Of a stretch of 63,679 bases of DNA, positions 22,470 to 37,894 are shown in pieces; within the stretch, counting starts at the first letter, position 1; the number at the start of each line of letters is the position of its first letter. The stretch is from a virus (taxonomy: Duplodnaviria > Caudoviricetes), in IMG/VR virus record IMGVR_UViG_3300023184_000116, positions 1 to 63,679 of that record; one strand, given 5' to 3'. A program made the translations under genes and the position numbers. The notes below the pieces were generated by a model. It did no database searches. It saw only the letters and a program-made list of their open reading frames with translations, and was not told the origin of the DNA.

Positions 22470-24608
22470 TTAAGCAAATAGCGCATTGGCTTGCCATTTC
22501 TGTACCGAGGTTGTGAACCATTTTTTGCTCGTTCCATCGCTTTCGACACGGATCAGGCCTTGCCCAATGGCGTCTTCTTTTGCTTTTCTAAGATCACTTG
22601 AGTGTCCTTTAACATTTGTGTCAATGTCTTTAGTCATGCATCCTTGATTCGCTTTGACATAGTCAATGAGAGCCTCCATGACGCGTTCTTTGGTTCGGTC
22701 GTGTTTGCCAATGGATCTTTCGATTCGTAGTGACCTGTCCGCTTCTGACCATGTTAAGAGCTGCTCGGCGACTTCCACGTCTCGACCTGTGGCGCTAAAG
22801 AATCGTTCACCTGACTCGTTTTTGTTTAGTAACCAGCGAACATCCGCCCAGTCGTCTAACCTGGTTGCTCCACGAGCTCGGTCGATGCCTTGTTCCTGGG
22901 CTCTTCCTGTGTGAGCTGGCATGATCAAGTTTTGGACACCGGCTCGGTCTTTGATAATGTCGAGCGTGTCAAGGAATACGCCAACATCCGAGTTGCTGTT
23001 TTCTTCACCTGAACCAGTGAACGCTCTCGCGTACGGGTCAATGACCCATGTTTGTGCGTTTAGGTTGCCAAGAATTTCAACGACCTTGTCTTCAATGTGT
23101 TTTGTCGTGAGTGGCATTCGTAGTCCACGCAAGTGCACTAGATACACTTTTGATTGGTTTCTGATTCCGACTTCTCGCATCCATTGTCTGTATTGCCGTT
23201 TGTCAACCTCGTAGTTAAAGATAACAATGTTGCCATCGTGTGGTTGTACGCCGTAGCGACCTAGAAATGGTTCATCATCGATTAGTGATTTCACGAACTG
23301 GTTCATCATCGTTGTTTTACCTGATTTGAACGCAGCGGTTAGGACAACGTTTGCACCTGTCGGGAATAGTTCATTGATCAAGTAAGATTCTTGTTCATCT
23401 GGTTGCTGTAGTTCGATCGATAGGTTACCTAGGATCTCTGGTGCGCGAAACGTTTTAAGGATTTGTTCATCATCGAGTAATTTTTTTGCTTCTCGGCGCA
23501 CTGCTTGTGTTTCGATCTCGGTTGCTAGTAACAAGTCGCGTCGACTTATTTGTGCCATTGGCTCGTCAATGATTTCACCGGTTTCTTCATCGTACAAAGG
23601 TAGATCAATCACTGGCGTGAACTGGTTTAATGGTGCTTGCTGTGGCTTGGCGCAATCACTGCCGCGACATGTTTCGTTTCGATAGTCACTTATTTTCGCT
23701 AGCGCACCTGTGACCATGTTTCGCCACTCGTTTGCTGCAACATAATGTGAGCCACGTTCTGAGCTTAACATGGTGGTGAATACTTGTTCACCAACATCGA
23801 GCGCGTTTGATACACCGTGGTGTCCTCTGGCGCCAAGTGAAACAAGTCGCATAACGATCGGTAGTGTTGCATCGTGTCGTGATCCTTCACTACCTGATAA
23901 CACGCGATGCAAATTGTGCACCTCGTTTGTTACTCGTTCACATGGTTGACCATTGGTTTTTATTGCTTCAAGCATCGTGTTTGTTTGCATCGGTGTTAAC
24001 TGTTTCTTAATGCTACTAGTTTCGAATTTACCTTGTGTGAGTGCAATGATCCATGTTTGTGGCAGCTCAGGTAGTTCACTTGTGTTCGGCCCTGCGCCAA
24101 TGACATCGGTTCCTGCAGGGTTGATCCATCTATAAGTTCCACCCTCTGGATGTATACTTGGCCAAACAACGGCGTAGCGATGCTCGTTTCGAATGATTTC
24201 AATTCCAGGGCCAGCGATACTCGGCCACGCTAGATTCTCTGGGATCTTAAATAACCTAATCCCGCTCGTGCCATCGTTTCGTGACGTGACACGCCAAGTT
24301 TCTGGTAAGATCCCAAAGTCTTGCTCGAGTTGCATTAGCGTCTGTCCACCTGTTTTGTCCTTGTACGCGTCAACGTCTAAACCGATCACGTTTTTCGGTA
24401 AGCGTAAACAAATGTTTCCTTTAGCGTTTAGGATCCATTCATAGATTTGTTCAGCGCTCGGATCTGGTGCATCTTTGCCCGTGTAACCTGATGGTGGTGG
24501 CCATTTCTCGTTTATTGGTAATGGTAAAACACCGAGCCAACCGTTGTTAAAATACGACGCAGCAGCTAGGTTGTACGGTGATTTGTTTTCACTGTTTTGC
24601 ATTACCAT
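22470..24608 (-). CDS. bifunctional primase-polymerase fused to an AAA/RecA-like helicase
   Basis: VLPL...K.PP, IGLDVD, VWPSIHPEG..YRW; AAFKSGKT, VIDP, H..R, RGA. Confidence 0.9.
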   Translation of the reverse strand: MVMQNSENKSPYNLAAASYFNNGWLGVLPLPINEKWPPPSGYTGKDAPDPSAEQIYEWILNAKGNICLRLPKNVIGLDVDAYKDKTGGQTLMQLEQDFGILPETWRVTSRNDGTSGIRLFKIPENLAWPSIAGPGIEIIRNEHRYAVVWPSIHPEGGTYRWINPAGTDVIGAGPNTSELPELPQTWIIALTQGKFETSSIKKQLTPMQTNTMLEAIKTNGQPCERVTNEVHNLHRVLSGSEGSRHDATLPIVMRLVSLGARGHHGVSNALDVGEQVFTTMLSSERGSHYVAANEWRNMVTGALAKISDYRNETCRGSDCAKPQQAPLNQFTPVIDLPLYDEETGEIIDEPMAQISRRDLLLATEIETQAVRREAKKLLDDEQILKTFRAPEILGNLSIELQQPDEQESYLINELFPTGANVVLTAAFKSGKTTMMNQFVKSLIDDEPFLGRYGVQPHDGNIVIFNYEVDKRQYRQWMREVGIRNQSKVYLVHLRGLRMPLTTKHIEDKVVEILGNLNAQTWVIDPYARAFTGSGEENSNSDVGVFLDTLDIIKDRAGVQNLIMPAHTGRAQEQGIDRARGATRLDDWADVRWLLNKNESGERFFSATGRDVEVAEQLLTWSEADRSLRIERSIGKHDRTKERVMEALIDYVKANQGCMTKDIDTNVKGHSSDLRKAKEDAIGQGLIRVESDGTSKKWFTTSVQKWQANALFA

Positions 24609-25423
24609 TGCCCGCTATCAATTGTCGCTGTTAACCATTCTTCAAAATCTGTTGACTCAACACGTAAGTCACCTTTAAGGATCTTTCGAGCATCACGGCT
24701 AATGTTCTCTATTGTGCTACTAGTCCATAAAGGTTTATACGGTTTTGATACTGGTTCAATTGACCACGTGAGATCTTTCACGTTATCAAAATGTTGTTCA
24801 TACAAATGTAGACTACCAACCGAGTGTGAGTACCAACCCATTTCAAGATCTAGTGCTCTCGCAACTGCGCCTTGTAGTGCACAGAACTGGATTAGATCGT
24901 AAGGTAATCCGAGCCAAACATCATTGGATCGCATTGTTGTTCTCGCGCATAGTTTGTTGTCACGGATCAGGAATTGTATTGAGAGTGTGCATGGTACATC
25001 ACGTGTGTCCACGTTTAGATCCTGTGTCGAGTTGTACATTGTTAATACTGCTTGACGTGTAAACATGTCACGTTTTAATACTTCAATAAGTGGTTTAAGT
25101 TTACCGTAGATTCTTATTCCGTACGCACCGTGAAAGATTCCACCATCGGTATAGTTTTGAAATGTTGAAACATTTGCAATGAGTTGTTCTGGTTCTGTTG
25201 TTTGACCAACGAGTTGTAGTGCCTCGCTCGCGCCAATGTAATCTCGTAGGTTGCGACCAGCGATACCGTTGAGTGGTATTTGCCAAGGCTCAGAGATGAC
25301 AAATGTCATGTTGCACATTTCACGTGTTTTTTGTCCTCTAGGTGATGACTCGTCACCGAATCCGTGCACAATGTTCGCAGCTGATAAAACTACTTGCGCC
25401 GGTGTTGTTAATTCTATAAACAT
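24602..25423 (-). CDS. thymidylate-synthase-family enzyme, probable dCMP hydroxymethylase/methylase
   Basis: GAYG.R, TRQAV, DVPCT, MRSNDVWLGLPYD, SLHLY; Asp at the ThyA Asn177 position. Confidence 0.8.
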   Translation of the reverse strand: MFIELTTPAQVVLSAANIVHGFGDESSPRGQKTREMCNMTFVISEPWQIPLNGIAGRNLRDYIGASEALQLVGQTTEPEQLIANVSTFQNYTDGGIFHGAYGIRIYGKLKPLIEVLKRDMFTRQAVLTMYNSTQDLNVDTRDVPCTLSIQFLIRDNKLCARTTMRSNDVWLGLPYDLIQFCALQGAVARALDLEMGWYSHSVGSLHLYEQHFDNVKDLTWSIEPVSKPYKPLWTSSTIENISRDARKILKGDLRVESTDFEEWLTATIDSGQW

Positions 25424-25887
25424 TAGTTTTCCTTTTCATAAAGTTCGTTGCTATCAATTATTTGCACGTCAATGGTGTGGATCTTTGGTGCAAGATCTAG
25501 AAAGTCTCGTTGTGCCAAAATGCTTGTCTCGATTTGTTGCTGTGTTTCACCTCGCTCGGTTAATGTTTTAAGGATCTCTTTTTCATCGCGTTTGATAATG
25601 ATGATCCGTGTTTTTAACGCGCTAAGGAACATGTTGCATGAGTTGAATGTGTAAATGTTTGGGAACAAACTTTCACGTTTAAAGTATTTTGGCCAAATCA
25701 TTTCACCAACATGCCATCGATCAAGTACATAATTGTAGCGAGGATCAAGTGAATACACGTATTCGTTTGCCCAGTTTTTTGTTTTTGGTTGGCTAGCGTG
25801 TAAATAGTTTGCGTTTGTTTCTTGTGCTAATCGTTTCGCGTACGATGTTTTACCAACACCATCTGTTCCTTCAATAATCGTTATCAT
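25423..25887 (-). CDS. dNMP kinase (thymidylate-kinase-like P-loop)
   Basis: IIEGTDGVGKTS and LDRW..GE. Confidence 0.8.
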   Translation of the reverse strand: MITIIEGTDGVGKTSYAKRLAQETNANYLHASQPKTKNWANEYVYSLDPRYNYVLDRWHVGEMIWPKYFKRESLFPNIYTFNSCNMFLSALKTRIIIIKRDEKEILKTLTERGETQQQIETSILAQRDFLDLAPKIHTIDVQIIDSNELYEKEN

Positions 25888-26771
25888 CGTATTTCACCCC
25901 AGTTTCTAAACGAGTCAATGTCGCCACTCGTTAAATTGTTCGGTGTCACATCACCAGCCACGTTCCATACTACCGTGCTAGCTGCTTTTGGTGCACTAGT
26001 TTTATCAAGCATGAAGTTTTCGAGTCCTTTGCAATCGTATGTTGGCGCAGTGGATACTTGTTCATTGATTTGTTTCGCCAAATCAGCTGACTGTTGAAAG
26101 ATCTTATGGTACGAGTTTGTTTCTGCTCGACCGATTTCACCAGGATGAAGGTTACGGGCAACCGCCACGCCATGAAAACGAGCATTTGGCCACGCGATCT
26201 GTAGTGTTCGTGTTAATACACCAGTGCTGATCACGCTAACCACGTCACGCGGCTCTGGTCGATTACCCCATTGCTGCAGCGTGGACTTGATACCAGCCGC
26301 GACCACGAGTGGGTGATCTAAACCAAATGGAACAAACTCTGCATTGTTTTCCGCTGCCCATTCCTTGGCGTACTTGTTGAGAACTGGCATTGCAGCGATT
26401 CGTCTAAAGATCGGTTTTGCTCCACGTTCGATACAAACAAGTTGGTGTGCACTTGCTTCTTTAGCTGATGGCATGAATAGTGTGAGTTTCTTGTCGTATT
26501 TTTTCGCTAACGCTGCTAGAGATACACCTGCCCAACCAACACGTGGCTGGACGTAAACCAAGTGATCTGTTTGCATGCTACGCACTAAGAGATCTCCCCA
26601 GCGTCCTTTCGTGCCGACACCGGTTATTGAATCATCCCACAAGGTCGCACCATGAAATGATTGCAGTGAAGGTGGTGGTGTTTCATCAACCCACCCGTCT
26701 GCTAAATCTAGCCATTCATCACGTGTCTTGTACGCGTATTTATTTGTCACATCAGTCGTGATCTTAAACAT
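25884..26771 (-). CDS. PLP-dependent enzyme, fold type II (TrpB/cysteine synthase-like)
   Basis: GTKGR Lys motif, LVY..P..G.A..SLA, STGVL phosphate loop; start MFKIT. Confidence 0.75.
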   Translation of the reverse strand: MFKITTDVTNKYAYKTRDEWLDLADGWVDETPPPSLQSFHGATLWDDSITGVGTKGRWGDLLVRSMQTDHLVYVQPRVGWAGVSLAALAKKYDKKLTLFMPSAKEASAHQLVCIERGAKPIFRRIAAMPVLNKYAKEWAAENNAEFVPFGLDHPLVVAAGIKSTLQQWGNRPEPRDVVSVISTGVLTRTLQIAWPNARFHGVAVARNLHPGEIGRAETNSYHKIFQQSADLAKQINEQVSTAPTYDCKGLENFMLDKTSAPKAASTVVWNVAGDVTPNNLTSGDIDSFRNWGEIR

Positions 26772-26976
26772 TATGCTCCTCCTTGTAAGCAATAACTTTA
26801 ATCAAAAATTCTTTAGTCGCTTTTAAAGTAGCAGCGTGTCCAACGTAATAACTTTCACCGTATTTTTTGCCATTCATCCATTCGTAAACAAGCCAAACTC
26901 TTTCTTGTTCATCAGGTTTGTAAATAAAAAAGTTTTTGTATTCGTAATAACCATCGCGGACTTTAGTTAACTTCAT
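26764..26976 (-). CDS. hypothetical early protein
   Basis: 70-aa coupled ORF, AT-rich. Confidence 0.6.
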   Translation of the reverse strand: MKLTKVRDGYYEYKNFFIYKPDEQERVWLVYEWMNGKKYGESYYVGHAATLKATKEFLIKVIAYKEEHNV

Positions 26977-27350
26977 TATGCACCTGCCTTTGCTTTACCA
27001 GTGCCTTCACATTGGTAACAAACATAACCGGTGTCTTTCCACATGTCAGATCGACCAGCACCACCGCAGCGAACACACAAACCTTGAGCTTTTAGATTTA
27101 ATTTAATTTCTTGCATTTTGTCATGTTGCATGCGATTGCGATTTAACCAATCTTGCTTAACTGCCGCACGCGCTGGTTCACCTTTTAATTCAAGTGCATA
27201 AGCCGCATCGCACATTGGCCAATTGCGATCTGTTAAACCTTCACGTTCTGTTAATTCTTGGCAGTAAACATTTCCGTATTCATAGATGCCTTCACCAGCT
27301 TCAACAATGTTTAAGCATGAACCGCATCGACCAGCGTATTTGTTTATCAT
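26976..27350 (-). CDS. hypothetical protein with Cys motifs (DnaJ-type CxxCxGxG)
   Basis: NKYAGRC..C; CVRCGGAG; CYQCEGTG. Confidence 0.65.
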   Translation of the reverse strand: MINKYAGRCGSCLNIVEAGEGIYEYGNVYCQELTEREGLTDRNWPMCDAAYALELKGEPARAAVKQDWLNRNRMQHDKMQEIKLNLKAQGLCVRCGGAGRSDMWKDTGYVCYQCEGTGKAKAGA

Positions 27351-27352
27351 GA

Positions 27353-27838
27353 TTAGTTACCTGCCTTTTCTGTTAGTCGTACGTTAGTGATTGCTGTGAA
27401 GTGTGCATTGCCTTCAGCATCTTTAATGCCAACTTTGATTGTGCCAAAACCATCAACGCCAAACCAAATAACCTCGCCGACAGTACCAACAGGAACTTTA
27501 CGACCCTTAAAAACTTCAACAGGAATTGATGGAACATTCTCACCAAGTTTTGTACGCAATGATTTCAACTGGCCATTGAAATCAGCAACAGCACTTAACT
27601 CTTTCCAATCTTTTGCAGTTGGCTTTGAAAAAACTTTTTCAACTTTCTCAATGTACTGTTCAACCATGAACTCAACAGACATTTCTTTGTAATCACAGTA
27701 ATGAGGTTCGATCCAACTAGCGCGACCATTGTCATAAAGTGCTTCAACTTTGCGACACAATACCCATTTGCCGTTACGATTCTCATGCCAAAATACATCG
27801 GTTGAACCGCACTTTGTGCACATTGCTTGCTTTGCCAT
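27353..27838 (-). CDS. hypothetical early protein
   Basis: Start MAKQA after the AAGGAC RBS of the repeat; KGRKVPVGTVG.V.W SH3-like end. Confidence 0.65.
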   Translation of the reverse strand: MAKQAMCTKCGSTDVFWHENRNGKWVLCRKVEALYDNGRASWIEPHYCDYKEMSVEFMVEQYIEKVEKVFSKPTAKDWKELSAVADFNGQLKSLRTKLGENVPSIPVEVFKGRKVPVGTVGEVIWFGVDGFGTIKVGIKDAEGNAHFTAITNVRLTEKAGN

Positions 27839-27842
27839 TTTC

Positions 27843-27972
27843 TTGTCCTTTGTTTGTCCTATCAGCTGTCCGGCTGATAAGACCATTCTATACACAAACC
27901 AAAAGCAAAAACTACCATTTCAGCAACTTTTTTTTAACTATTTTTTTCCTTTATTTCCAATGCTTTTTCTAG
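27843..27972 (-). promoter_or_regulatory. repeated promoter/stem-loop/RBS module, copy 1
   Basis: A-tracts, AAATGGTAGTTTTT, TGTGTATAGAAT, ATCAGC-6-GCTGAT hairpin, AAAGGACA RBS. Confidence 0.8.
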
Positions 27973-29007
27973 ATGTTTCACATGTGTCCAATGTTTTTTA
28001 TGATTCGGCACTAGAGAATTATTGAAAACCTGCCACGGTTCAAGATGCTCATAACCTTTAGGTACATAGCATTCAACATAGCGCACATAATCGCACGCAA
28101 CATCCTCTAGTGCTAAACCTTTACCCATGTTGCGCAAAAGATCTTTAGGATCATGCGGGCTACGAAACTCGTTACAGATCTTTTCCATTGCAGCATCGAG
28201 AAACAAGTTTTGACTCTTAAAACCATCATTGCCGAATAAAAGATTCAATGCTTGTTTCGCGTTGTTGCCATAGTTCACTTGTGAGTATGGATCAATAAGC
28301 TCAGGAAAATACGCAGCAACATCCATGACAAAAGCTGTCATGACAAAGTGAAAACATTTCAACCCGTTTTCTCGATGCCAATTATTGATCCAATCAACAC
28401 CATCGCGAATGCTCATTGATAACGGGTTATCGATCAAATGGAAATAAAAATCAACAACAAGTCGAAGCATGTACTCGGCGACGTAAAGCTCAGATCCGCG
28501 TTTATAGTCACCGCGTGGTTTCGGGAACATTGGAATCTGGTTACCGATACTGGTGAAGATTGCTCGACCTTGACGCATTTGACTCAACACGTAGTCGCGC
28601 ATTTCACCCATGCTCGTGGTGTTTAACGCCATGTCGCTTAGTAAACTATTTCTAAACCCGTGATCGTAACTAAACGATGCACCTGAACCTGTTACGCGAT
28701 GCACAAGAAATAGGAAGAACCAGTCAATGTCAGCGAACGGTGTTGAATCGAATCGTGGATCTGCTTGCCACTTTTTCGGGTTATTGCTACCGTGCCAGAT
28801 TTGCTGAATCGCGTTACTGAAACCAGCGAACTCACGATCAACCGTGTCATAGATTGTTATGTAGTGTTGTAGTGGATCATCAACGTGTAACGGCTCGGTT
28901 GTGTCTCTACCGTTCTCACTAGCAATGTTGATTGTTTGCAGCACCGCAGCTTTCTTGTAGTACTCTTTGAAGTCTTCCCAGTAAATTGTTTCAATCAGCT
29001 TACCCAT
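27934..29007 (-). CDS. DNA base-hypermodification protein, amino acid:DNA transferase / aGPT-pyrophosphorylase-like
   Basis: D.V.R..AGF, HRVTGS, G.NA..AL and LEDVACDYVRY resemble this helical family; lies in a cluster with TS-like, kinase and PLP genes. Confidence 0.6.
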   Translation of the reverse strand: MGKLIETIYWEDFKEYYKKAAVLQTINIASENGRDTTEPLHVDDPLQHYITIYDTVDREFAGFSNAIQQIWHGSNNPKKWQADPRFDSTPFADIDWFFLFLVHRVTGSGASFSYDHGFRNSLLSDMALNTTSMGEMRDYVLSQMRQGRAIFTSIGNQIPMFPKPRGDYKRGSELYVAEYMLRLVVDFYFHLIDNPLSMSIRDGVDWINNWHRENGLKCFHFVMTAFVMDVAAYFPELIDPYSQVNYGNNAKQALNLLFGNDGFKSQNLFLDAAMEKICNEFRSPHDPKDLLRNMGKGLALEDVACDYVRYVECYVPKGYEHLEPWQVFNNSLVPNHKKHWTHVKHLEKALEIKEKNS

Positions 29008-30002
29008 TTGTTTGCCTCATTTGTTTCTAGATTCCATTCATAAAACTCTGGTGATAGATGCACTGAACCTGGTTTCTCCATGTGCACTTTCGCGTACTCT
29101 TCCGGGTCCATTTCATACCACGATCGTGGCCATGCATGGACCTTGGTGAAAAGATCTTCCAAACGGTTTTGGAATACTTCACGGATCTGGTTACGCTTTT
29201 CACGTGTGCCATAAAACGGTGTTTTCTTGTAGTAACCCGATTTTGGGATTCGCCGCTGCTCAAACTCGATCGGGTACGGGCTAGTCACCTCAAATGAACC
29301 AATAAGATCTTTCACCTGTAACTCTGTGAGCTGTTTGTGAAGATCCTCAACGAGTGTCACCGCAGCTTTTAGTGGGTTGAACTGGCGTGCAAGATGATGA
29401 CGAATGTCAATGTTACCGGCTGAGATCACGAGATGCTCCACGCGATAATCTGGTAGATACGATTCCACGCCACGAGTTGTTAAACCATGCAATGTTAAAC
29501 CATCGTGACGGTACACAATAGTGCCGCGTCGATACCTTGCAATGGAATGTGAGTCACCGATAACAACGCGCGTCACGTTAGGAACCAGAGCCTCATGTGT
29601 TAACACTGGCGCATTGGTTATGTCCACTATTTTTTGCCATTCAGCCTTGGTGAAATCTAGCTGAGCTTTTGCTGCACGCTCACCAAGGATTGCTTGAATG
29701 TTCGGCAATGGTTTCTCTAATGCTTTGATGTTGCCAAGATCCATGTCAAGGATTCTTGAGATCCTGTCATGGACTTCTTGCGTGAACCCACCGAACAGGT
29801 TGAACGTGTCACCACCGAATTCCATTGGTGTGGACACTAACCAGATACCGTCAAGAACCGTCCACGGTTTGTTACCTGCTAGTAGTGGTTTACCGTGGCC
29901 AAGATCTTCAACCATGCACGCTTGCATTCTTGGCCACGCAGCTTTATGGCTTGACATTTTTGAACTAAACGATGTCACCACGTCGTCAATGATCATGGTC
30001 AT
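28995..30002 (-). CDS. conserved phage protein with SGNH-like motifs
   Basis: VIGDSHS, GNIDIRHHL, SVHL; coupled to the previous gene. Confidence 0.55.
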   Translation of the reverse strand: MTMIIDDVVTSFSSKMSSHKAAWPRMQACMVEDLGHGKPLLAGNKPWTVLDGIWLVSTPMEFGGDTFNLFGGFTQEVHDRISRILDMDLGNIKALEKPLPNIQAILGERAAKAQLDFTKAEWQKIVDITNAPVLTHEALVPNVTRVVIGDSHSIARYRRGTIVYRHDGLTLHGLTTRGVESYLPDYRVEHLVISAGNIDIRHHLARQFNPLKAAVTLVEDLHKQLTELQVKDLIGSFEVTSPYPIEFEQRRIPKSGYYKKTPFYGTREKRNQIREVFQNRLEDLFTKVHAWPRSWYEMDPEEYAKVHMEKPGSVHLSPEFYEWNLETNEANKWVS

Positions 30003-30211
30003 GCTTTCACCTGATCTTGTTTATCCTTCACCGCGTAATAGAAAGTGAACCAATTATGGATCGTGTCTTCTAGCGATGCTGGTAATAGTTCACCGGTGAT
30101 CTTTTTACCGAGCGCATAATACTCTTCACTAACCTTGTCATCCCATAGATCTTCAAGATCCATGAATGCTTGCGCAACTCGATGGATTGCAGCTAACTGG
30201 TTCTTTGTCAT
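29999..30211 (-). CDS. hypothetical early protein
   Basis: 70-aa coupled ORF. Confidence 0.55.
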   Translation of the reverse strand: MTKNQLAAIHRVAQAFMDLEDLWDDKVSEEYYALGKKITGELLPASLEDTIHNWFTFYYAVKDKQDQVKA

Positions 30212-30567
30212 TATGCTGCAGCTCCTTCGCGAATAACTTTAACTAACGTGATCTTGTCAGCACCTGAACCGTAAGCCCAATGATTTACGTTCCGGTAAAT
30301 GTTGAACTCGTAACCAGCGTCCAACGTGATCTCAACTTCATCCTCATTATTCATAACCAAGCCAACGAATGTTACTTCCTCGGTGTAACTACCGAAAGGT
30401 GCATGGAACTTCACTTCAATAAGTGAACCAGGTACCACGTTCGCCAAGCGGCGATTCTTAACTGGCTTTGGCTTTGCTGCTTCAGCTTCTTCCAACACGC
30501 AAAGTTTCATCTGCAGTGCTGCAATCTGTGTCTTGCATTCTTCTATCTCGAAATTGATCTTTGTCAT
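30211..30567 (-). CDS. hypothetical early protein
   Basis: 118 aa with AAGGAC RBS. Confidence 0.6.
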   Translation of the reverse strand: MTKINFEIEECKTQIAALQMKLCVLEEAEAAKPKPVKNRRLANVVPGSLIEVKFHAPFGSYTEEVTFVGLVMNNEDEVEITLDAGYEFNIYRNVNHWAYGSGADKITLVKVIREGAAA

Positions 30568-30587
30568 GATTTGTCCTTTGTCCTTTT

Positions 30588-30647
30588 TTGACCTGTCTCA
30601 TCAGTTGCAAGTGGTCAACCTTGCAAGACGCCCAAAGGCGTTTCGAC
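30588..30647 (-). ncRNA. type II hammerhead ribozyme with pseudoknot
   Basis: GUC GAAA CGCC-UUUG-GGCG UC^ UUGCAAG-GUUGACCA-CUUGCAA CUGAUGA GAC A GGUCAA: complete core, three stems and a UUGACC/GGUCAA pseudoknot. Confidence 0.92.
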
Positions 30648-31051
30648 TAGTTGATCGCACCACCTTGTTTGCAGTTCGGGCAAGTGTAACTAAAAGTTTT
30701 GCATGTTTCGCGGCAGCAATCACAAAATTCTGTGGTGCTCATTCCAGTTAATTCTGCTTTAGTGTTGCCAGCAATTAATGTGTCATGCATGTTGCAGTAT
30801 GCAATCCATTTGCCATCTGAATCATCAAAACCAAAATCAATTGCTTTGCCAATTTCAATTTCTGCTTTTGCTAACTTTGTCAAGCATCGTGTGCACGCTA
30901 AATCATCTGCGTAATGTGCTTCAGTTTCACTACCGATAAAGCGTGAGTTGCAAGTTGCTGTTGTGCCATCGTTTGAAAGATGTACAAGGTTTGTTTTGTA
31001 ATCGTGCATTAGTTTGAAACCTAGTGCTACTGCTTTTGCTTTTGCGTTCAT
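30647..31051 (-). CDS. hypothetical Cys-rich early protein
   Basis: Start MNAKA after the RBS of repeat copy 2; several CxxC motifs. Confidence 0.6.
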   Translation of the reverse strand: MNAKAKAVALGFKLMHDYKTNLVHLSNDGTTATCNSRFIGSETEAHYADDLACTRCLTKLAKAEIEIGKAIDFGFDDSDGKWIAYCNMHDTLIAGNTKAELTGMSTTEFCDCCRETCKTFSYTCPNCKQGGAIN

Positions 31052-31056
31052 GATCG

Positions 31057-31177
31057 TGTCCTTTTGTCCTATCAGCTGTCCGGCTGATGTTTCTATTCTA
31101 TACACAAACCAGAAGTAAAAACTACCATTTGGACAACTTTTTTTTAACTATTTTTTTCCTTTATTTCCAATGCTTTT
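31057..31177 (-). promoter_or_regulatory. repeated promoter/stem-loop/RBS module, copy 2
   Basis: Near-identical to 27843..27972. Confidence 0.8.
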
Positions 31178-31610
31178 ACGCGCTACAGCTAGATTCAGTG
31201 CACAAAACACCATCATCATCTAGTGCACGTTTGCAAGTTTTACACTTACCAGACACACCATCATAGCCATGCAACTGTCGCGCAGCATTGATCTCTGCTT
31301 TCTTTTTATACACTTCAAAAACATCATCAGCTGTCCAACCAATCGCGAGCCAAAGATTAACAAGAAAATGCAACGCGTCAACAAGTTCACTACCAAACGA
31401 TAACTGGTTAACATGTCGACTCTTCGCCCACGGTTTCCAACCACACTCTGCTAGCGCTTCATGCAACTCGTCCTGTAGTGCAAGATTCATCATCGCAATG
31501 TACTCTGCTTTTGCAACCGGGTCAAGCGTGTGTGGTTCAACACCGAACGATTCCTTTTGCAAACGCGCTTGTCGTTCAAAGATCAATTTCAATGTGTCAA
31601 TGTTTGTCAT
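31176..31610 (-). CDS. all-alpha dimeric dUTPase/dCTPase (MazG-like)
   Basis: E..EAL....WKPW...ELVDALHF...Y.KK..IN..RQ..GY. Confidence 0.85.
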   Translation of the reverse strand: MTNIDTLKLIFERQARLQKESFGVEPHTLDPVAKAEYIAMMNLALQDELHEALAECGWKPWAKSRHVNQLSFGSELVDALHFLVNLWLAIGWTADDVFEVYKKKAEINAARQLHGYDGVSGKCKTCKRALDDDGVLCTESSCSA

Positions 31611-32041
31611 TACAGTTTTCCTTTTTCTAGACGAGCAATGTTCAACTTTAGAACATCCGCGATGTTCTCAATTTCAGATCTTGGATAACTCGGTCCATCA
31701 ATGTAATCACTAAACACGATCTGTTTAAAGCCGTGCGCAGCAATAATCGTTAAACAGTTCGCGCACGGAAAATGTGTCACAGCTAAAAGACCGTTGCGTG
31801 TGTCCTTGATCGTTGCATAACGAAGCGCGTTCGCTTCAGCGTGGATCACGTAAGGACGACGAGCATCACGATCAAGCCAATCGATTTGCACATTCGATGG
31901 TGCACCATTGTAGCCAACACTTGCGACACTCATGTCTTCACGCAAAACCGCTGCACCAACTTTAATGAACGGATCTTCACTGCGTTTAGCTGCAGCGAAC
32001 GCTAGTTCGAGTGCATACTCTGGCCAAGTTAATCGTTTCAT
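31610..32041 (-). CDS. dCMP deaminase
   Basis: RS.DP..KVGA, GYNG, HAEANA, PC..C. Confidence 0.9.
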   Translation of the reverse strand: MKRLTWPEYALELAFAAAKRSEDPFIKVGAAVLREDMSVASVGYNGAPSNVQIDWLDRDARRPYVIHAEANALRYATIKDTRNGLLAVTHFPCANCLTIIAAHGFKQIVFSDYIDGPSYPRSEIENIADVLKLNIARLEKGKL

Positions 32042-32644: not shown

Positions 32645-32914
32645 TTAGAGGTCGTTATCCTCTTCATCGTGTTCGACTTCTTCGCGTGTATAAAATTCTT
32701 GTTTCGCTAAACGTTCCTGGTTCAGTTCATCAGCGGCTCGCCAGCGGGCGTCATCAAATGCTTCTTTGTTAAGATCTTCCTCTGCTGCGTATTCGTTCCA
32801 TGGATCAAGATCCACAGCTTTCTTGTATGAATGCACAACCTCAGCTGCAAAAACCGCTGAGATCGCCGTGAACGCGCCAAGGAGAAACCCGATTAGCAAT
32901 GTAAAGATCTTCAT
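32645..32914 (-). CDS. membrane-anchored hypothetical protein
   Basis: N-terminal hydrophobic helix. Confidence 0.55.
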   Translation of the reverse strand: MKIFTLLIGFLLGAFTAISAVFAAEVVHSYKKAVDLDPWNEYAAEEDLNKEAFDDARWRAADELNQERLAKQEFYTREEVEHDEEDNDL

Positions 32915-33642
32915 TTACCTGCACATCCTTTCGAAAGATCATTATTCTCTGGTGTAAACCATGAACAGTAGTGACATAATCGACTCGGTTCAAACGGGAT
33001 CAAATTCCAATGCTGTGGATTCTCCTCCGGGTCAAGCATCACAAGTAACTGGATCGTGTCATCGAGTCGTTGCATTGCATCAATCGCGATCTGTTCATCA
33101 TAGTCGCTGATCCAAACATGCAAACCTGAAAGCATTCCACCAAGTGGATAAAACGCTAACGCGATCTGTTTCACATCGTAACCGGCTTGCTTCAAACCAT
33201 ACGCGTAGATGCTCAACTGAATTAACTGCTGTTTTGTTGGACCTTCAAGTTTACGAGCTTTCATTGAAGCTGCGCCAACACATTTATGATCGATCACGAT
33301 ACCGTTATCAACATCGAACAAGTCAACGGTGCCGGTTAAACCAGGCCTCGCTGTTACACGATGCTCAATTAACCAGTTGCCTTCACTTGTTTCACCAAAC
33401 GCGTCAGCTAACCAAGCGTGAATCGCTGTACCGCTAATCGCTGGCCACGGATCTGTAACCGTGTTCACTTTCGGTGTGTCCATCATTTTGTACGCTAGTT
33501 TGCGAACACAAGCGTCACCAATTTCAGATGGACCAATGTTCAACTGTCGAGACCTTGGCTTGTTCGCATCCGATGATTTGATAATCGCAGCAATCCGCTG
33601 CTCCAGAGATTTCGATGCTGCAACAGGTGATGTGAAACTCAT
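32911..33642 (-). CDS. Cas4/RecB-like exonuclease
   Basis: IGPSEIG..C.RK, GTAIH, GTVDL, IDHK, Q..IY, C..C. Confidence 0.85.
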   Translation of the reverse strand: MSFTSPVAASKSLEQRIAAIIKSSDANKPRSRQLNIGPSEIGDACVRKLAYKMMDTPKVNTVTDPWPAISGTAIHAWLADAFGETSEGNWLIEHRVTARPGLTGTVDLFDVDNGIVIDHKCVGAASMKARKLEGPTKQQLIQLSIYAYGLKQAGYDVKQIALAFYPLGGMLSGLHVWISDYDEQIAIDAMQRLDDTIQLLVMLDPEENPQHWNLIPFEPSRLCHYCSWFTPENNDLSKGCAGK

Positions 33643-36434: not shown

Positions 36435-36707
36435 CTACAACTCTTCATCTGGGATCGCGCATTCACCTGCGCCAGCAAAATACGCTGCGCCATCAATGAA
36501 ATGATCTACATCTAAACTATTCACACATCGCGCGAGCTTAACACCAACCATGCACAATGCAACTTGATGAGCTGAAACATCCACGCCAAGAATCACGGAC
36601 CAGATCTTTGCAATGTTTGTGTGATTAGTCACAAAATCACCGGATGTTTTCTCACGATCACCACCAGTTAATTCTGCAGCTCGCTGCAAAACATGAAAAC
36701 GATTCAC
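36435..36707 (-). CDS. small all-alpha protein (DUF6378 / nucleotide pyrophosphatase-like)
   Basis: A..L..GDR...G....NH..IA.IWS...QVALCM..VKLAR...D.AAY. Confidence 0.65.
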   Translation of the reverse strand: MNRFHVLQRAAELTGGDREKTSGDFVTNHTNIAKIWSVILGVDVSAHQVALCMVGVKLARCVNSLDVDHFIDGAAYFAGAGECAIPDEEL

Positions 36708-37894
36708 CGATTTTCACCAGCTAACACAACAAGATCTCGACGCGGGTCATAATCCTCGCCAACAACAAGCGACACGATACCAGTTGGTGATTCCAAGCCG
36801 CGAGTATTTCTAAACCATGGTGAACCACCATCCATCGCCGGTGTTTGCACCCACAAACGAGGACCAACCTGTGAAACCTTGTAGTGATGAAAATGTGCAG
36901 AGATCAAAACATCACATGAACCAACCGGTGTGCGACCAGTTGCTTGACCTTCCCACCACTTTGGAAGATCACGTGCTTGATGACCGTGAACAAAACCGAT
37001 CATTGCACCAGAAAGATCCATGGCAAGTGACAAACTATCGCGTTCAGGGTAACGAAACTGCACGTGAGCTAAAGCAGGATTCTCAGCGCAAGCATCTTGC
37101 ACAGCTGAAACAACTTCGATCTGCCACGAGTCAACCGGGTCAGTTAAAACAATGCGGTGTGGTTCATCATGATTACCTGGTACACAAGGAACAACAAGCG
37201 ACTCGGTTAAAGGCGCAAAAGTTTTAACCCAATTTAGTAAAACTCTGCGACCAATTCGCACTTGTTGAGTCACCGATAAATCAGATCTACCAAGAACACC
37301 ACCTTTTTGACTCGTTGAACCTTCAATGCAGTCACCGAGCTGCGGTAAAACTATTTCACCAATGTCACGACCAGTTTTAACGAGCTCATTGAACCTAAAA
37401 ACCGATGCATTAAGCGCTTCACCCATGCGACGCACGGTACCATTTGTGCCATCACCTGCATCTTTACCGTATTGAGTATCGCCAACGCAAAAAAGGCTCG
37501 ACAGAGAACCACCACGTGGCTTCTGTCGAGCACTTGGACGCCACTTTGAAAGCGACTTCATGAGATCTTCAAGATCTTGTGCAAGATCATTTGAAACAGC
37601 CCGCGCTGGGACAAGTGAAACCCTTGCAGCTTCAAGCCATTCACCGTCATAACGCTGCCAGCGAGAACGACGAACAGATGTCACTAGCCATTGGCTAGGA
37701 TCTAGATCAAAATCCTGTAACAAATCTTTTGCATCCGGTAAATCACCGACACTTCGAGCAGTTGAAACAAGAAAACCACCGTTTGAATCAACTTCAAGAC
37801 GTGGACGCCAACCTTCTGGCGTGTTCAATGCTCGAACATCTGAACCTGATTGACCAGGTGAAACCATTTTAGAAAGATCATCACTGAGCGACAT
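36704..37894 (-). CDS. calcineurin-like metallophosphoesterase (Mre11-like)
   Basis: GDTQ, GDCIEG, PGNHD, HGH, HFHH. Confidence 0.85.
   Translation of the reverse strand: MSLSDDLSKMVSPGQSGSDVRALNTPEGWRPRLEVDSNGGFLVSTARSVGDLPDAKDLLQDFDLDPSQWLVTSVRRSRWQRYDGEWLEAARVSLVPARAVSNDLAQDLEDLMKSLSKWRPSARQKPRGGSLSSLFCVGDTQYGKDAGDGTNGTVRRMGEALNASVFRFNELVKTGRDIGEIVLPQLGDCIEGSTSQKGGVLGRSDLSVTQQVRIGRRVLLNWVKTFAPLTESLVVPCVPGNHDEPHRIVLTDPVDSWQIEVVSAVQDACAENPALAHVQFRYPERDSLSLAMDLSGAMIGFVHGHQARDLPKWWEGQATGRTPVGSCDVLISAHFHHYKVSQVGPRLWVQTPAMDGGSPWFRNTRGLESPTGIVSLVVGEDYDPRRDLVVLAGENR

What the first reader, a model, noticed from the sequence alone, without database searches (positions are those of the whole stretch)
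24602..32041. Candidate new DNA hypermodification system: cytosine-type synthase plus thymidine-hypermodification-type tailoring enzymes
With the two inserted cassettes removed, the genes read dCMP deaminase, dUTPase/dCTPase, SGNH-like, amino acid:DNA transferase-like, PLP enzyme, dNMP kinase, TS-family enzyme. Transferase plus PLP-enzyme pairs are known from 5-hmdU hypermodifying phages (ViI, M6). Here the TS homologue has RSND..LGLPYD, with Asp where ThyA and dUMP hydroxymethylases have Asn, as in T4 dCMP hydroxymethylase. No glycosyltransferase or obvious separate 5-hmU DNA kinase is visible. Two models follow: amino-acid/amine (possibly acylated) decoration of 5-hydroxymethylcytosine, or 5hm-dUMP made indirectly by deaminating 5hm-dCMP. 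Either would be an unusual anti-restriction chemistry.
Basis: partly seen in the sequence, partly recalled or inferred. Interest (0 to 1): 0.88.

Follow-up and report, generated by a model that had tools for sequence, protein, structure and literature searches.

The report
Candidate cytosine DNA hypermodification gene cluster
An uncultured phage carries genes for making 5-hydroxymethylcytosine next to three tailoring enzymes related to those that decorate thymine in other phages, which points to an undescribed way of disguising cytosine in viral DNA.

Summary
On the minus strand of 24602-32041 lie seven genes: dCMP deaminase, dUTPase_2-type NTPase, a 335-aa SGNH-fold protein, a 357-aa protein, a PLP fold-II enzyme, a small P-loop kinase and a thymidylate-synthase homologue. 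Two three-gene cassettes interrupt them and are absent from all 80 related loci.

- **TS homologue:** it has the 5hm-dCMP synthase signature (ThyA L143D, D169 kept, N177D). So do 44 of 44 complete TS homologues beside this family.
- **357-aa protein:** it matches no Pfam model. Its confident model best matches "amino acid:DNA transferase" proteins (Foldseek E 1e-17) and PaMx11 gp46 (Z 10.6). It keeps a Glu-x3-Cys motif like that of M6 gp51.
- **PLP enzyme:** it is homologous to the M6 gp52 decarboxylase (hhalign 96.8%).
- **SGNH-like protein:** it is fused to the 357-aa family in 8 of 8 long relatives. No 5-hmU DNA kinase was found.

Best reading (0.55): amino-acid-derived tailoring of 5hmC in DNA after replication. 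The SGNH-fold enzyme may activate the hydroxymethyl group in place of the kinase; this step is inferred. The family is widespread in viral metagenomes, absent from the cultured-phage records searched, and I found no description of it in print. No chemistry has been shown. I rate it a new variant of a known kind, interest 0.8.

The parts
31610..32041 (-). dCMP deaminase (143 aa), zinc motifs HAE and PCxxC
   Evidence: PF00383 E 8.9e-18; phrog_174 E 5.2e-31; motifs at residues 67 and 92
31176..31610 (-). dUTPase_2-family all-alpha NTP pyrophosphatase (144 aa). Likely dCTPase/dUTPase; has a Cys-rich C-terminal tail
   Evidence: PF08761 E 3.8e-12; phrog_18650 E 1e-32. Substrate is inferred
29999..31177 (-). 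Inserted cassette 1: a 115-nt repeat (promoter-like sequence plus hairpin) followed by three small ORFs (152, 118 and 70 aa) of unknown function
   Evidence: No homologue in 80 related loci; repeat
28995..30002 (-). 335-aa two-domain protein. The C-terminal half (about 142-335) has an SGNH/GDSL fold with S151 (GDSH), G173, N197 and H315 conserved. The N-terminal alpha/beta domain has invariant S18-H19
   Evidence: AF2 pLDDT 89.4; VIA Z 11-12 to many GDSL esterases and acyltransferases; Foldseek E 1e-4; invariants; phrog_13881 E 1.8e-57; no Pfam hit
27934..29007 (-). 357-aa all-alpha protein, AADT/aGPT-Pplase-like (helix-hairpin-helix glycosylase-like fold). Invariant HRxTGSGASFxxDHGxRN, TSxGNQxP and E301-D-V-x-C305
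   Evidence: AF2 pLDDT 93.2; BFVD Foldseek E 1.1e-17, TM 0.79 to 'Amino acid:DNA transferase domain' proteins; 8z2m PaMx11 gp46 Z 10.6, rmsd 4.0, 221 aligned; invariants; no Pfam or PHROG hit
26764..27967 (-). Inserted cassette 2: the same 115-nt repeat followed by three small ORFs (180, 124 and 70 aa) of unknown function
   Evidence: No homologue in 80 related loci; repeat
25884..26792 (-). PLP-dependent fold-type-II enzyme (302 aa as listed, probably 295 aa), homologue of M6 gp52. Invariant K62
   Evidence: phrog_7093 E 2.4e-28, the PHROG of M6 gp52 (E 2.2e-159); profile vs M6 gp52 hhalign 96.8%, E 2.8e-10; PALP weak; cysteine synthases E 1e-4 with the profile
25423..25887 (-). 154-aa P-loop NMP-kinase-like protein. 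Probably the dNMP kinase that takes 5hm-dCMP onward (inferred)
   Evidence: Weak Thymidylate_kin/dNK/AAA hits; phrog_761 E 1.3e-7; no similarity to M6 gp54 5-HMUDK; start and stop overlap with the TS gene
24602..25423 (-). Thymidylate-synthase-family enzyme (273 aa) with the dCMP hydroxymethylase signature: D142 (ThyA L143), C145 (C146), D168 (D169), D176 (N177)
   Evidence: PF00303 E 5.6e-20; best solved relative is MilA CMP 5-hydroxymethylase 5b6d, E 5.6e-20; residue numbering; signature per PMC13326640 passages

Best explanation
The region is a two-tier DNA modification module.

**Tier 1, nucleotide level (as in T4).** The dUTPase_2-type NTPase lowers dCTP/dUTP. The TS homologue converts dCMP to 5-hydroxymethyl-dCMP. 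The small P-loop kinase passes it on towards the triphosphate. The dCMP deaminase feeds dUMP to host thymidylate synthesis. 5hmC would then enter phage DNA at replication. No family-A polymerase was found, so the replicase is unidentified and may be the host's.

**Tier 2, on DNA after replication.** A conserved trio tailors 5hmC.
- The 357-aa HhH-glycosylase-like enzyme flips the base out. By analogy with amino acid:DNA transferases, its Cys305 (with Glu301) attacks C6, the leaving group on the C5 methylene departs, and an amino acid is added.
- The PLP enzyme, a homologue of M6 gp52, then remodels the appended amino acid, probably by decarboxylation.
- The SGNH-fold enzyme is fused to the transferase in some viruses and sits where the 5-hmU DNA kinase sits in thymidine systems. 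Most likely it makes the leaving group by O-acylating the hydroxymethyl group instead of phosphorylating it.

The product would be an aminoalkyl- or amino-acid-type adduct on cytosine C5 that blocks host nucleases.

**Shown:** gene content, folds, conserved residues, co-occurrence and fusions.
**Inferred:** every chemical step, the substrate being DNA, the role of the SGNH enzyme, and the product.
For: 1. **TS homologue.** The closest solved relative is MilA CMP hydroxymethylase (E 5.6e-20). Asp176 aligns with the MilA Asp and the ThyA Asn. D142, C145, D168 and D176 fit the residue rules quoted in PMC13326640: N177D for dCMP, L143D/E for hydroxymethylation, D169N for 5-hydroxy-C.

2. **TS homologues in related loci.** In 80 viral loci that encode relatives of the 357-aa protein, 45 hold a TS-family ORF. 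Of these, 44 cover the motifs and 44 of 44 have D at all three positions. Ten of them share the motif variant of the second TS-family gene of T4-like Aeromonas phage 44RR2.8t.

3. **357-aa model (pLDDT 93.2).** BFVD top hits are 'Amino acid:DNA transferase domain' proteins (E 1.1e-17, TM 0.79, 28% identity). SP10 5-hmdU DNA kinase and Pplase1 proteins follow. The top solved chain among 48,161 is PaMx11 gp46 glycinyltransferase (Z 10.6), followed by HhH DNA glycosylases at Z 5-8.

4. **Catalytic motif.** E301 and C305 are invariant in 27 sequences and nearly invariant in 25 more distant ones. The spacing E-x-[VT]-x-C is that of M6 gp51 E243/C247 and gp55 E291/C295. The Cys and the nearby Glu are essential in M6 gp51 and ViI gp247 (PMC8989533 passages). 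Cys247 is the nucleophile proposed for PaMx11 gp46 (PMC11472151 passages).

5. **PLP enzyme.** It falls in the same PHROG as M6 gp52. Profile against gp52 gives 96.8%, E 2.8e-10, with the Lys aligned. The same domain family is fused to an N6/N4 DNA methylase in Erythrobacter phage ZS04.

6. **Linkage.** Outside a distinct 22-locus subgroup, 52 of 58 loci hold the SGNH-like gene and 53 of 58 the PLP gene by HMM. All six SGNH misses and three of the five PLP misses are at contig or locus ends. In 27 diverse loci the counts are SGNH-like 26, PLP 23, TS 20, deaminase 17, MazG-type 10, ThyX 6. All 8 of 8 representative relatives of 560 aa or more are SGNH-like (N-terminal) plus AADT-like (C-terminal) fusions (for P0121).

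7. **SGNH fold with S, G, N and H conserved**. Matches include O-acetyltransferases PatB and OatA.

8. **No 5-HMUDK.** PF18723 has no match at E<=1. The 154-aa kinase is unlike M6 gp54. No such cluster appears among conserved neighbours.
Against: - No chemistry is shown, and no modified base has been measured in any carrier of the module.
- The 357-aa family matches no Pfam model, PF18724 and PF18723 included. hhalign to M6 gp51 and gp55 is insignificant.
- That C305 is equivalent to Cys247 rests on motif and position, not on a residue-level superposition.
- For helical models the aligner's own notes warn that Z below about 13 may reflect only a common arrangement.
- SGNH enzymes are mostly hydrolases. 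The usual Asp of block V is not conserved, and no acyl donor is evident.
- The phage has no recognisable family-A DNA polymerase, so 5hm-dCTP may have to be used by the host replisome.
- The 154-aa kinase cannot be assigned to a substrate.
- A 22-locus subgroup of the family (about 390 aa) lacks the SGNH, PLP and TS partners within the DNA held.
Confidence: 0.55

Rival explanations
1. Same pathway and target (5hmC in DNA), but the SGNH-fold enzyme is not the activator. It acts late, acylating or deacylating the appended amine (as acetyltransferase gp48 does in PaMx11), or it prepares the donor. The AADT-like enzyme would then act on unactivated 5hmC or on a group activated by a host enzyme.
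For: SGNH enzymes are typically esterases and deacetylases. PaMx11 ends its pathway with an acetylation (PMC8989533 passages).
Against: In 8 of 8 fusions the SGNH-like domain precedes the transferase domain. This is also the position of the kinase domain in SP10 5-hmdU DNA kinase, as I infer from the Foldseek alignment length against its 637 residues. The SGNH-like gene is the most constant partner, present in 26 of 27 diverse loci. No other candidate activator is conserved.
Confidence: 0.2
2. 5hm-dCMP is deaminated by the phage dCMP deaminase to 5hm-dUMP. 5hmU then enters DNA and the trio hypermodifies thymidine positions as in ViI or M6.
For: A dCMP deaminase lies in the operon and near the module in 17 of 27 diverse loci. 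All characterised relatives of the transferase and of the PLP enzyme act on 5hmU derivatives (PMC8989533).
Against: No 5-HMUDK-type kinase or HMUDK_hel domain is found. ThyX, which makes dTMP, accompanies the module in 6 of 27 loci. Deaminase plus dCTPase plus hydroxymethylase is the classical T4 kit, in which the deaminase supplies dUMP (established knowledge, recalled). No TS homologue with Asn at position 177 lies beside the family, 0 of 44.
Confidence: 0.1
3. The trio does not modify bases in DNA. It acts on free nucleotides or small molecules, or the HhH-like protein is a glycosylase or salvage enzyme (compare the queuine salvage enzyme DUF2419). Linkage to the hydroxymethylase would then reflect shared nucleotide metabolism only.
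For: The fold also matches the queuine salvage enzymes 7ugk and 7u07 (Z 8.0) and DNA glycosylases (Z 5-8). No Pfam ADDT match.
Against: The best matches are DNA-acting transferases. The Glu-x3-Cys motif is kept. The PLP domain family is fused to a DNA methylase in cultured phages. Linkage with the PLP homologue of M6 gp52 is tight.
Confidence: 0.1
4. The TS homologue makes a different C5 group on dCMP (methyl or hydroxyl), and the trio tailors that instead.
For: TS homologues with N177D can make 5-hydroxy-dCMP (PMC13326640). N229D ThyA methylates dCMP (reference titles listed in the same paper).
Against: The D169N signature of 5-hydroxy-dCMP synthases is absent: D168 is kept here and in 44 of 44 relatives. 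L143D, linked to water access and hydroxymethylation, is present.
Confidence: 0.05

Closest known systems
Thymidine hypermodification pathways of Pseudomonas phages M6 and PaMx11 and Salmonella phage ViI (5-HMUDK + aGPT-Pplase2/AADT + PLP enzyme)
   Same: An HhH-glycosylase-like transferase with a Glu-x3-Cys motif. A fold-II PLP enzyme of the same PHROG as M6 gp52. A TS-family hydroxymethylase upstream. Clustered genes and natural fusions between the activating and transferring parts (fusions in T systems per PMC8989533).
   Different: The hydroxymethylase is of the cytosine type. There is no 5-hmU DNA kinase; an SGNH-fold protein is the constant partner instead. The transferase does not match Pfam PF18724 or PF18723. 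No radical-SAM, FAD or acetyltransferase partner was seen.
T4-type 5-hydroxymethylcytosine synthesis (gp42 dCMP hydroxymethylase, gp56 dCTPase, gp1 dNMP kinase, cd deaminase) followed by glucosylation
   Same: Hydroxymethylase signature, NTP pyrophosphatase, deaminase and small kinase in one operon.
   Different: No glycosyltransferase was seen among the 20 window proteins scanned. Tailoring would be by an AADT-like, PLP and SGNH-like trio. The kinase shows no detectable match in T4-like phage 44RR2.8t. The T4 gene names are recalled, not fetched.
MilA, CMP 5-hydroxymethylase of mildiomycin biosynthesis (PDB 5b6d)
   Same: Closest solved relative of the TS homologue (E 5.6e-20, 194 residues aligned), with Asp at the N177 position.
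   Different: MilA acts on the ribonucleotide CMP in antibiotic synthesis. Here the context is phage deoxynucleotide metabolism.
ORF233c (795 aa) of T4-like Aeromonas phages 44RR2.8t, 31 and 25
   Same: The N-terminal 335 residues are homologous to the SGNH-like protein (34.5% identity, E 6e-38; profile E 2.4e-97). The phage encodes a gp42-like TS homologue with D143, D169 and D177.
   Different: The C-terminal 460 residues do not match the 357-aa family and only weakly match PF18723 HMUDK_hel (E 0.0036, below cut-off). No adjacent PLP gene is annotated.

Membership tests
Thymidylate synthase superfamily, dCMP hydroxymethylase type | Match to the TS family model | tested here: met
   PF00303 E 5.6e-20, 72 bits against a cut-off of 24.3; it is the only TS-family gene in the record
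Thymidylate synthase superfamily, dCMP hydroxymethylase type | Catalytic Cys (ThyA C146) | tested here: met
   C145 in DVPCT
Thymidylate synthase superfamily, dCMP hydroxymethylase type | Asp at ThyA N177 (dCMP preference) | tested here: met
   D176 aligns with the ThyA Asn and the MilA Asp; rule from PMC13326640 passages
Thymidylate synthase superfamily, dCMP hydroxymethylase type | Acidic residue at ThyA L143 (hydroxymethylation), and D169 kept (not a 5-hydroxy-dCMP synthase) | tested here: met
   D142 and D168; 44 of 44 relatives are alike; rule
Thymidylate synthase superfamily, dCMP hydroxymethylase type | Makes 5hm-dCMP from dCMP and methylene-tetrahydrofolate | not testable with these tools
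   Needs an enzyme assay or in vivo LC-MS
Amino acid:DNA transferase (Pfam PF18724 ADDT, aGPT-Pplase clade 2) | Match to the family's sequence model | tested here: not met
   No Pfam hit at E<=10. PF18724 has no match in the record at E<=1. 0 of 27 and 0 of 25 relatives match it. hhalign to M6 gp51 is insignificant
Amino acid:DNA transferase (Pfam PF18724 ADDT, aGPT-Pplase clade 2) | HhH DNA-glycosylase-like fold as in PaMx11 gp46 | tested here: met
   8z2m Z 10.6, rmsd 4.0, 221 aligned, top of 48,161 chains; BFVD AADT-domain proteins E 1.1e-17, TM 0.79. Foldseek on PDB found nothing at E<=0.001
Amino acid:DNA transferase (Pfam PF18724 ADDT, aGPT-Pplase clade 2) | Conserved catalytic Cys with a nearby Glu | tested here: inconclusive
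   E301 and C305 are invariant, with the same E-x3-C spacing and relative position as M6 gp51 E243/C247. Structural equivalence was not checked residue by residue
Amino acid:DNA transferase (Pfam PF18724 ADDT, aGPT-Pplase clade 2) | Co-occurs with a 5-hmU DNA kinase | tested here: not met
   No PF18723 match. The 154-aa kinase is unlike M6 gp54. No such cluster among conserved neighbours
Amino acid:DNA transferase (Pfam PF18724 ADDT, aGPT-Pplase clade 2) | Transfers an amino acid to an activated 5-hydroxymethylpyrimidine in DNA | not testable with these tools
   Needs reconstitution
SGNH/GDSL hydrolase superfamily | SGNH fold | tested here: met
   Residues 142-335: Z 11-12 to many GDSL enzymes (59 chains at Z>=8); Foldseek probability 1.00, E 1e-4
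SGNH/GDSL hydrolase superfamily | Conserved Ser (block I), Gly (II), Asn (III), His (V) | tested here: met
   GDSH S151, G173 and H315 are invariant; N197 is conserved in at least 90% of 24 sequences. The block V Asp is not conserved. Block assignment was made by eye
SGNH/GDSL hydrolase superfamily | Match to Pfam Lipase_GDSL models | tested here: not met
   No Pfam hit at E<=10. The ESM Atlas gives only a lead: one neighbouring cluster with Lipase_GDSL on 41% of members
PLP fold-type-II enzymes of phage hypermodification (M6 gp52, phrog_7093) | Homology to M6 gp52 with the Schiff-base Lys | tested here: met
   phrog_7093 E 2.4e-28, against M6 gp52 at E 2.2e-159. hhalign 96.8%, E 2.8e-10 over 221 columns, with K62 aligned to the gp52 Lys. 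K62 is invariant. Pfam PALP scores only 19.4 bits, below the cut-off of 35
[quoted passage not shown] | P-loop kinase of the M6 gp54 type, often with an HMUDK_hel domain | tested here: not met
   BLASTP of the 154-aa kinase against M6 gp54 gives E 6.1. gp54 falls in phrog_800, the window kinase in phrog_761. PF18723 is absent

The most novel reading that the evidence does not exclude
A widespread pathway, so far seen only in uncultured viruses, makes the first amino-acid-derived (non-sugar) hypermodification of cytosine. 5hmC in DNA is activated by O-acylation by an SGNH-fold enzyme, a DNA-directed activity not known for that fold, rather than by phosphorylation. A new family of Cys-dependent HhH transferases then substitutes the group, and a PLP enzyme trims the adduct. 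The SGNH-like fusion protein of T4-like Aeromonas phages would be a cultured relative of the activating step.
Probability: 0.3. Interest if true: 0.9.

Novelty: new variant of a known kind. Interest (0 to 1): 0.8.

Why it matters
Known phage cytosine hypermodifications are sugars on 5hmC or 5-hydroxy-C. Amino-acid and amine adducts are known only on thymidine (passages of PMC8989533 and PMC13326640).

A cytosine counterpart would add a new natural DNA base. It would also add a new transferase family and possibly a new way of activating a hydroxymethyl group on DNA.

Such bases shape resistance to restriction enzymes and CRISPR nucleases. They can also yield tools for labelling 5hmC.

The module is common:
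- at least 559 viral-contig matches;
- 413 protein clusters;
- presence in contigs with T7-type RNA polymerase, with UvsX, and in this siphovirus-like genome.

It is absent from 50,697 deposited phage records, so it has escaped study.

Tried and rejected
- **Near-identical DNA** in the phage collection: none.
- **tblastn against phages:** none for the 357-aa protein or for the kinase.
- **Sequence searches for the 357-aa family:** Pfam and PHROG found nothing. The profile against PDB sequences gave only a chance hit at E 0.96. Foldseek against PDB gave nothing at E<=0.001. The link to PaMx11 gp46 came only from the exhaustive aligner.
- **hhalign of the family profile** against M6 gp51 and gp55: probability about 2%.
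- **BLASTP to M6 proteins:** the PLP enzyme against gp52 and the kinase against gp54 gave nothing. The PLP link needed a profile.
- **Aeromonas ORF233c C-terminal half** against the family profiles: no match at E<=10. Its relation to the family therefore stays a weak lead (PF18723 E 0.0036).
- **Kinase against PDB:** only P-loop-level similarity. No match in phage 44RR2.8t.
- **Complex prediction** of the SGNH-like and 357-aa proteins: no verdict, score 0.01, controls not run. This is no evidence either way.
- **ESM Atlas** for the SGNH-like protein: only viral hypothetical clusters.
- **Genome-contig scan:** 5 loci, all metagenome-assembled records, so no cultured host.
- **Iyer et al. 2013**, which defined the aGPT-Pplase clades, is not held. 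What I say of it is taken from PMC8989533 or recalled.
- **Literature searches** found no description of an AADT-type or SGNH-linked cytosine hypermodification. Supplementary files were not opened and may list such metavirome clusters.

Full report
**What the window is.** The window is a complete-looking viral record of 63,679 bases (IMG/VR; CheckV estimate 100%). It encodes terminase, portal, protease/capsid, tail tube and tail-fibre genes, and a Prim-Pol/helicase. No family-A DNA polymerase, no ThyX and no second TS-family gene were found.

**The observation.** All ORFs of the finding lie on the minus strand. In transcription order they are:
- dCMP deaminase, 31610-32041 (PF00383, E 8.9e-18);
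- a dUTPase_2-family NTPase, 31176-31610 (PF08761, E 3.8e-12);
- three small ORFs (cassette 1);
- a 335-aa protein, 28995-30002;
- a 357-aa protein, 27934-29007;
- three small ORFs (cassette 2);
- a PLP enzyme, 25884-26792;
- a 154-aa P-loop kinase, 25423-25887;
- a TS homologue, 24602-25423 (PF00303, E 5.6e-20).

Neighbouring genes of the core set overlap or abut, as in an operon.

Both cassettes begin with a 115-nt direct repeat, 91% identical. The repeat holds an A-rich stretch, a TGTGTATAGAAT box and a hairpin just before the likely ATG. A 48-nt core of it occurs only at these two places in the window, with 0 expected.

None of the six cassette proteins has a BLASTP hit in any of 80 related loci. 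In 15 of those loci the seven core genes are contiguous in the same order.

**The synthase.** The closest solved relative is MilA, a CMP 5-hydroxymethylase (5b6d, E 5.6e-20). In the printed alignments the Asp of LPYD pairs with an Asp of MilA and with the Asn of S. aureus ThyA.

Passages of PMC13326640 give the residue rules in E. coli ThyA numbering:
- N177D gives dCMP preference;
- L143D/E goes with hydroxymethylation, in T4-like enzymes and in MilA;
- D169N marks the newly found 5-hydroxy-dCMP synthases.

The window enzyme has D142, C145, D168 and D176 at these positions. That is the 5hm-dCMP signature, not the 5-hydroxy signature.

In the 80 viral loci fetched with the 357-aa family, 45 hold a TS-family ORF. 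Of these, 44 cover the motif columns, and 44 of 44 have Asp at all three positions. Ten of them carry the motif variant (CTN... GY[KR]ND) of the second TS-family gene of T4-like Aeromonas phage 44RR2.8t. That phage also has an ordinary td with Asn177. No Asn177 enzyme sits next to the family.

**The 357-aa protein.** It has no Pfam or PHROG match, even at E 10. It belongs to a large family: 413 clusters at E<=0.001 among 1,434 candidates and 166 representatives at 50% identity. At least 559 viral-contig stretches encode relatives. There are 0 tblastn matches in 50,697 deposited phage records. Only 5 loci were found in the contigs of 185,579 species' genomes, and all five are metagenome-assembled records.

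An alignment of 27 members shows invariant blocks HRxTGSGASFxxDHGxRN, TSxGNQxP and ED-V-x-CD-x-x-R.

The AlphaFold model is confident (pLDDT 93.2, pTM 0.91) and all-alpha.
- Foldseek against PDB found nothing.
- Against predicted viral structures, the top hits are 'Amino acid:DNA transferase domain-containing' proteins (E 1.1e-17, TM 0.79, 28% identity). SP10 5-hmdU DNA kinase, Pplase1 proteins and PhiW-14 and other 'HMUDK helical domain' proteins follow.
- The exhaustive aligner puts PaMx11 gp46 (5-PmdU glycinyltransferase, 8z2m) first of 48,161 chains (Z 10.6, rmsd 4.0, 221 aligned). HhH glycosylases and the queuine salvage enzyme follow at Z 5-8. That tool warns that Z below about 13 can be unspecific for helical proteins, so I lean more on the Foldseek result.

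E301 and C305 are invariant and nearly invariant in 25 more distant members. The E-x-[VT]-x-C spacing and the position about 85% along the chain match M6 gp51 (E243, C247) and gp55 (E291, C295). PMC8989533 reports that mutating this Cys or the nearby Glu abolishes activity in M6 gp51 and ViI gp247 (passages). PMC11472151 proposes Cys247 of PaMx11 gp46 as the C6 nucleophile (passages).

By sequence models the protein is not a member of Pfam ADDT (PF18724) or HMUDK_hel (PF18723). I treat it as a new family of the same fold class that probably works the same way.

**The PLP enzyme.** It scores weakly on Pfam PALP (19.4 bits, below cut-off). It matches phrog_7093 (E 2.4e-28), the PHROG of M6 gp52 (E 2.2e-159). 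A profile of 24 homologues matches M6 gp52 at 96.8% probability (E 2.8e-10, 221 columns). The invariant K62 falls on the gp52 lysine, and C-terminal YD-K-W and FWN motifs are shared. The same profile finds cysteine synthases in PDB (E 1e-4).

In cultured Erythrobacter phage ZS04 the same domain family (profile E 1.1e-60) sits inside an 812-aa protein with an N6/N4 DNA methylase domain. This fits a DNA-directed role.

**The 335-aa protein.** It has no Pfam match but matches phrog_13881 and phrog_17781. The model (pLDDT 89.4) has an N-terminal alpha/beta domain. Its C-terminal domain (142-335) matches dozens of GDSL/SGNH esterases and O-acyltransferases (Z 11-12; 59 chains at Z>=8; Foldseek E 1e-4). 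In 24 homologues GDSH (S151), G173 and H315 are invariant and N197 is conserved in at least 90%. So are S18-H19 and many basic residues. The usual block V Asp is not conserved.

**Linkage.** By profile HMMs, 52 of 80 loci hold the SGNH-like gene and 53 of 80 the PLP gene.
- A distinct subgroup of 22 loci (protein about 390 aa) has neither and no TS gene in the DNA held. It has an HhH-GPD paralogue and other unknown neighbours.
- Outside that subgroup the counts are 52 of 58 and 53 of 58. All six SGNH misses and three of the five PLP misses are at contig or locus ends. L077 and L080 lack the PLP gene within 8 kb.
- In 27 diverse loci (within 8 kb) the counts are: SGNH-like 26, PLP 23, TS 20, dCMP deaminase 17, a MazG/PRA-PH pyrophosphatase 10, a kinase-like cluster 8, ThyX 6. 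Replication genes (Pol A, UvsX, DnaB, T7-type RNA polymerase) appear in 3-5 loci each.
- No 5-HMUDK, radical-SAM, FAD or glycosyltransferase cluster is among the conserved neighbours.

All 8 of 8 representative relatives of at least 560 aa are fusions of an N-terminal SGNH-like part and a C-terminal 357-aa-like part.

In cultured phages the SGNH-like part occurs in 43 records: Aeromonas 38, Tenacibaculum 3, Stenotrophomonas 2. In the T4-like ones it forms the N-terminal third of a 795-aa protein. The rest of that protein only weakly resembles HMUDK_hel (E 0.0036).

**Mechanism.** The nucleotide tier (dCTP/dUTP hydrolysis, dCMP hydroxymethylation, phosphorylation, dUMP supply) follows from family assignments plus the T4 paradigm, which is established knowledge recalled here and summarised in PMC13326640.

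For the DNA tier, the transferase-like fold, the kept Glu/Cys pair and the gp52-type PLP enzyme argue for the ViI/M6 logic transposed to 5hmC:
1. activation of the hydroxymethyl group;
2. Cys attack at C6 and loss of the leaving group;
3. addition of an amino acid;
4. PLP-dependent trimming.

No kinase is conserved with the trio. The SGNH-fold protein is its most constant partner and is fused N-terminally to the transferase. I therefore propose that it supplies the leaving group by O-acylation. This is inference by analogy only. A late acylation or deacylation role is the main variant.

The deamination route to 5hmU is possible but less likely, for three reasons. No 5-HMUDK is found. ThyX lies near the module in 6 of 27 loci. 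No Asn177 synthase lies beside the family (0 of 44).

**Novelty.** Searches of the held literature returned the thymidine pathways, TET-based and glycosyl cytosine modifications and 5-hydroxy-C. They returned no amino-acid-type cytosine pathway and no SGNH partner. I saw passages of PMC8989533, PMC11472151, PMC13326640, PMC8056088 and PMC5889632. Iyer et al. 2013 and all supplements were not seen.

I rate it a new variant of a known kind: the thymidine hypermodification logic, with a new transferase family, a different base and a different presumed activator. All chemistry remains to be shown.

Noticed in passing
window 27853-27967 and 31063-31177: A 115-nt direct repeat (91% identical) heads both inserted cassettes. 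On the minus strand it reads an A-rich tract, a TGTGTATAGAAT box, then a hairpin (ATCAGC-CGGACA-GCTGAT) just before the likely ATG. It looks like a portable promoter/leader. The long GTG-started ORFs 'MYR...SAGQLIGQ' are probably artefacts of it.
   Followed up: partly
L049, L052, L055, L059-L060, L062-L070, L072-L076, L078, L079, L082 (viral contigs): A subgroup of the 357-aa family (about 390 aa, roughly 30% identity) has no SGNH-like, PLP or TS gene in the DNA held. It is flanked by an HhH-GPD-superfamily paralogue (PF00730, E 6e-7), several unknown conserved genes and a SegE-type GIY-YIG endonuclease. It may be a different modification system built on the same transferase fold.
   Followed up: partly
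L002 6001-8388 (Aeromonas phage 44RR2.8t ORF233c): A 795-aa protein of T4-like Aeromonas phages joins the SGNH-like module to a C-terminal part with a weak HMUDK_hel match. It lies next to a sodium:solute symporter gene. The phage has a gp42-like hydroxymethylase. It is a possible cultured model for the SGNH-like step.
   Followed up: partly
L087 2326-4764 (Erythrobacter phage ZS04 gene 7): An 812-aa protein annotated as DNA methyltransferase holds an N6/N4 methylase domain followed by a PLP fold-II domain of the same family as the window's PLP enzyme (profile E 1.1e-60). Similar proteins occur in Erythrobacter phage R6L and Microcystis phage Mae-JY30.
   Followed up: partly
window, whole record: No family-A DNA polymerase, ThyX or second TS gene was found. 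Replication genes seen are a Prim-Pol/helicase (22470-24608), a PD-(D/E)XK nuclease (32911-33642) and an exonuclease-like protein (36704-37894). A modified dNTP may therefore have to be used by the host replisome.
   Followed up: partly
L015 (viral contig): In one close relative the PLP, kinase and TS genes lie inverted about 4 kb downstream of the other four genes. This is a rearrangement or an assembly artefact.
   Followed up: no
window 28995-30002 (ESM Atlas neighbours): A cluster of 972-aa giant-virus proteins with glycosyltransferase domains has a region structurally like the 335-aa protein (TM 0.59 by query). This is a lead only.
   Followed up: no
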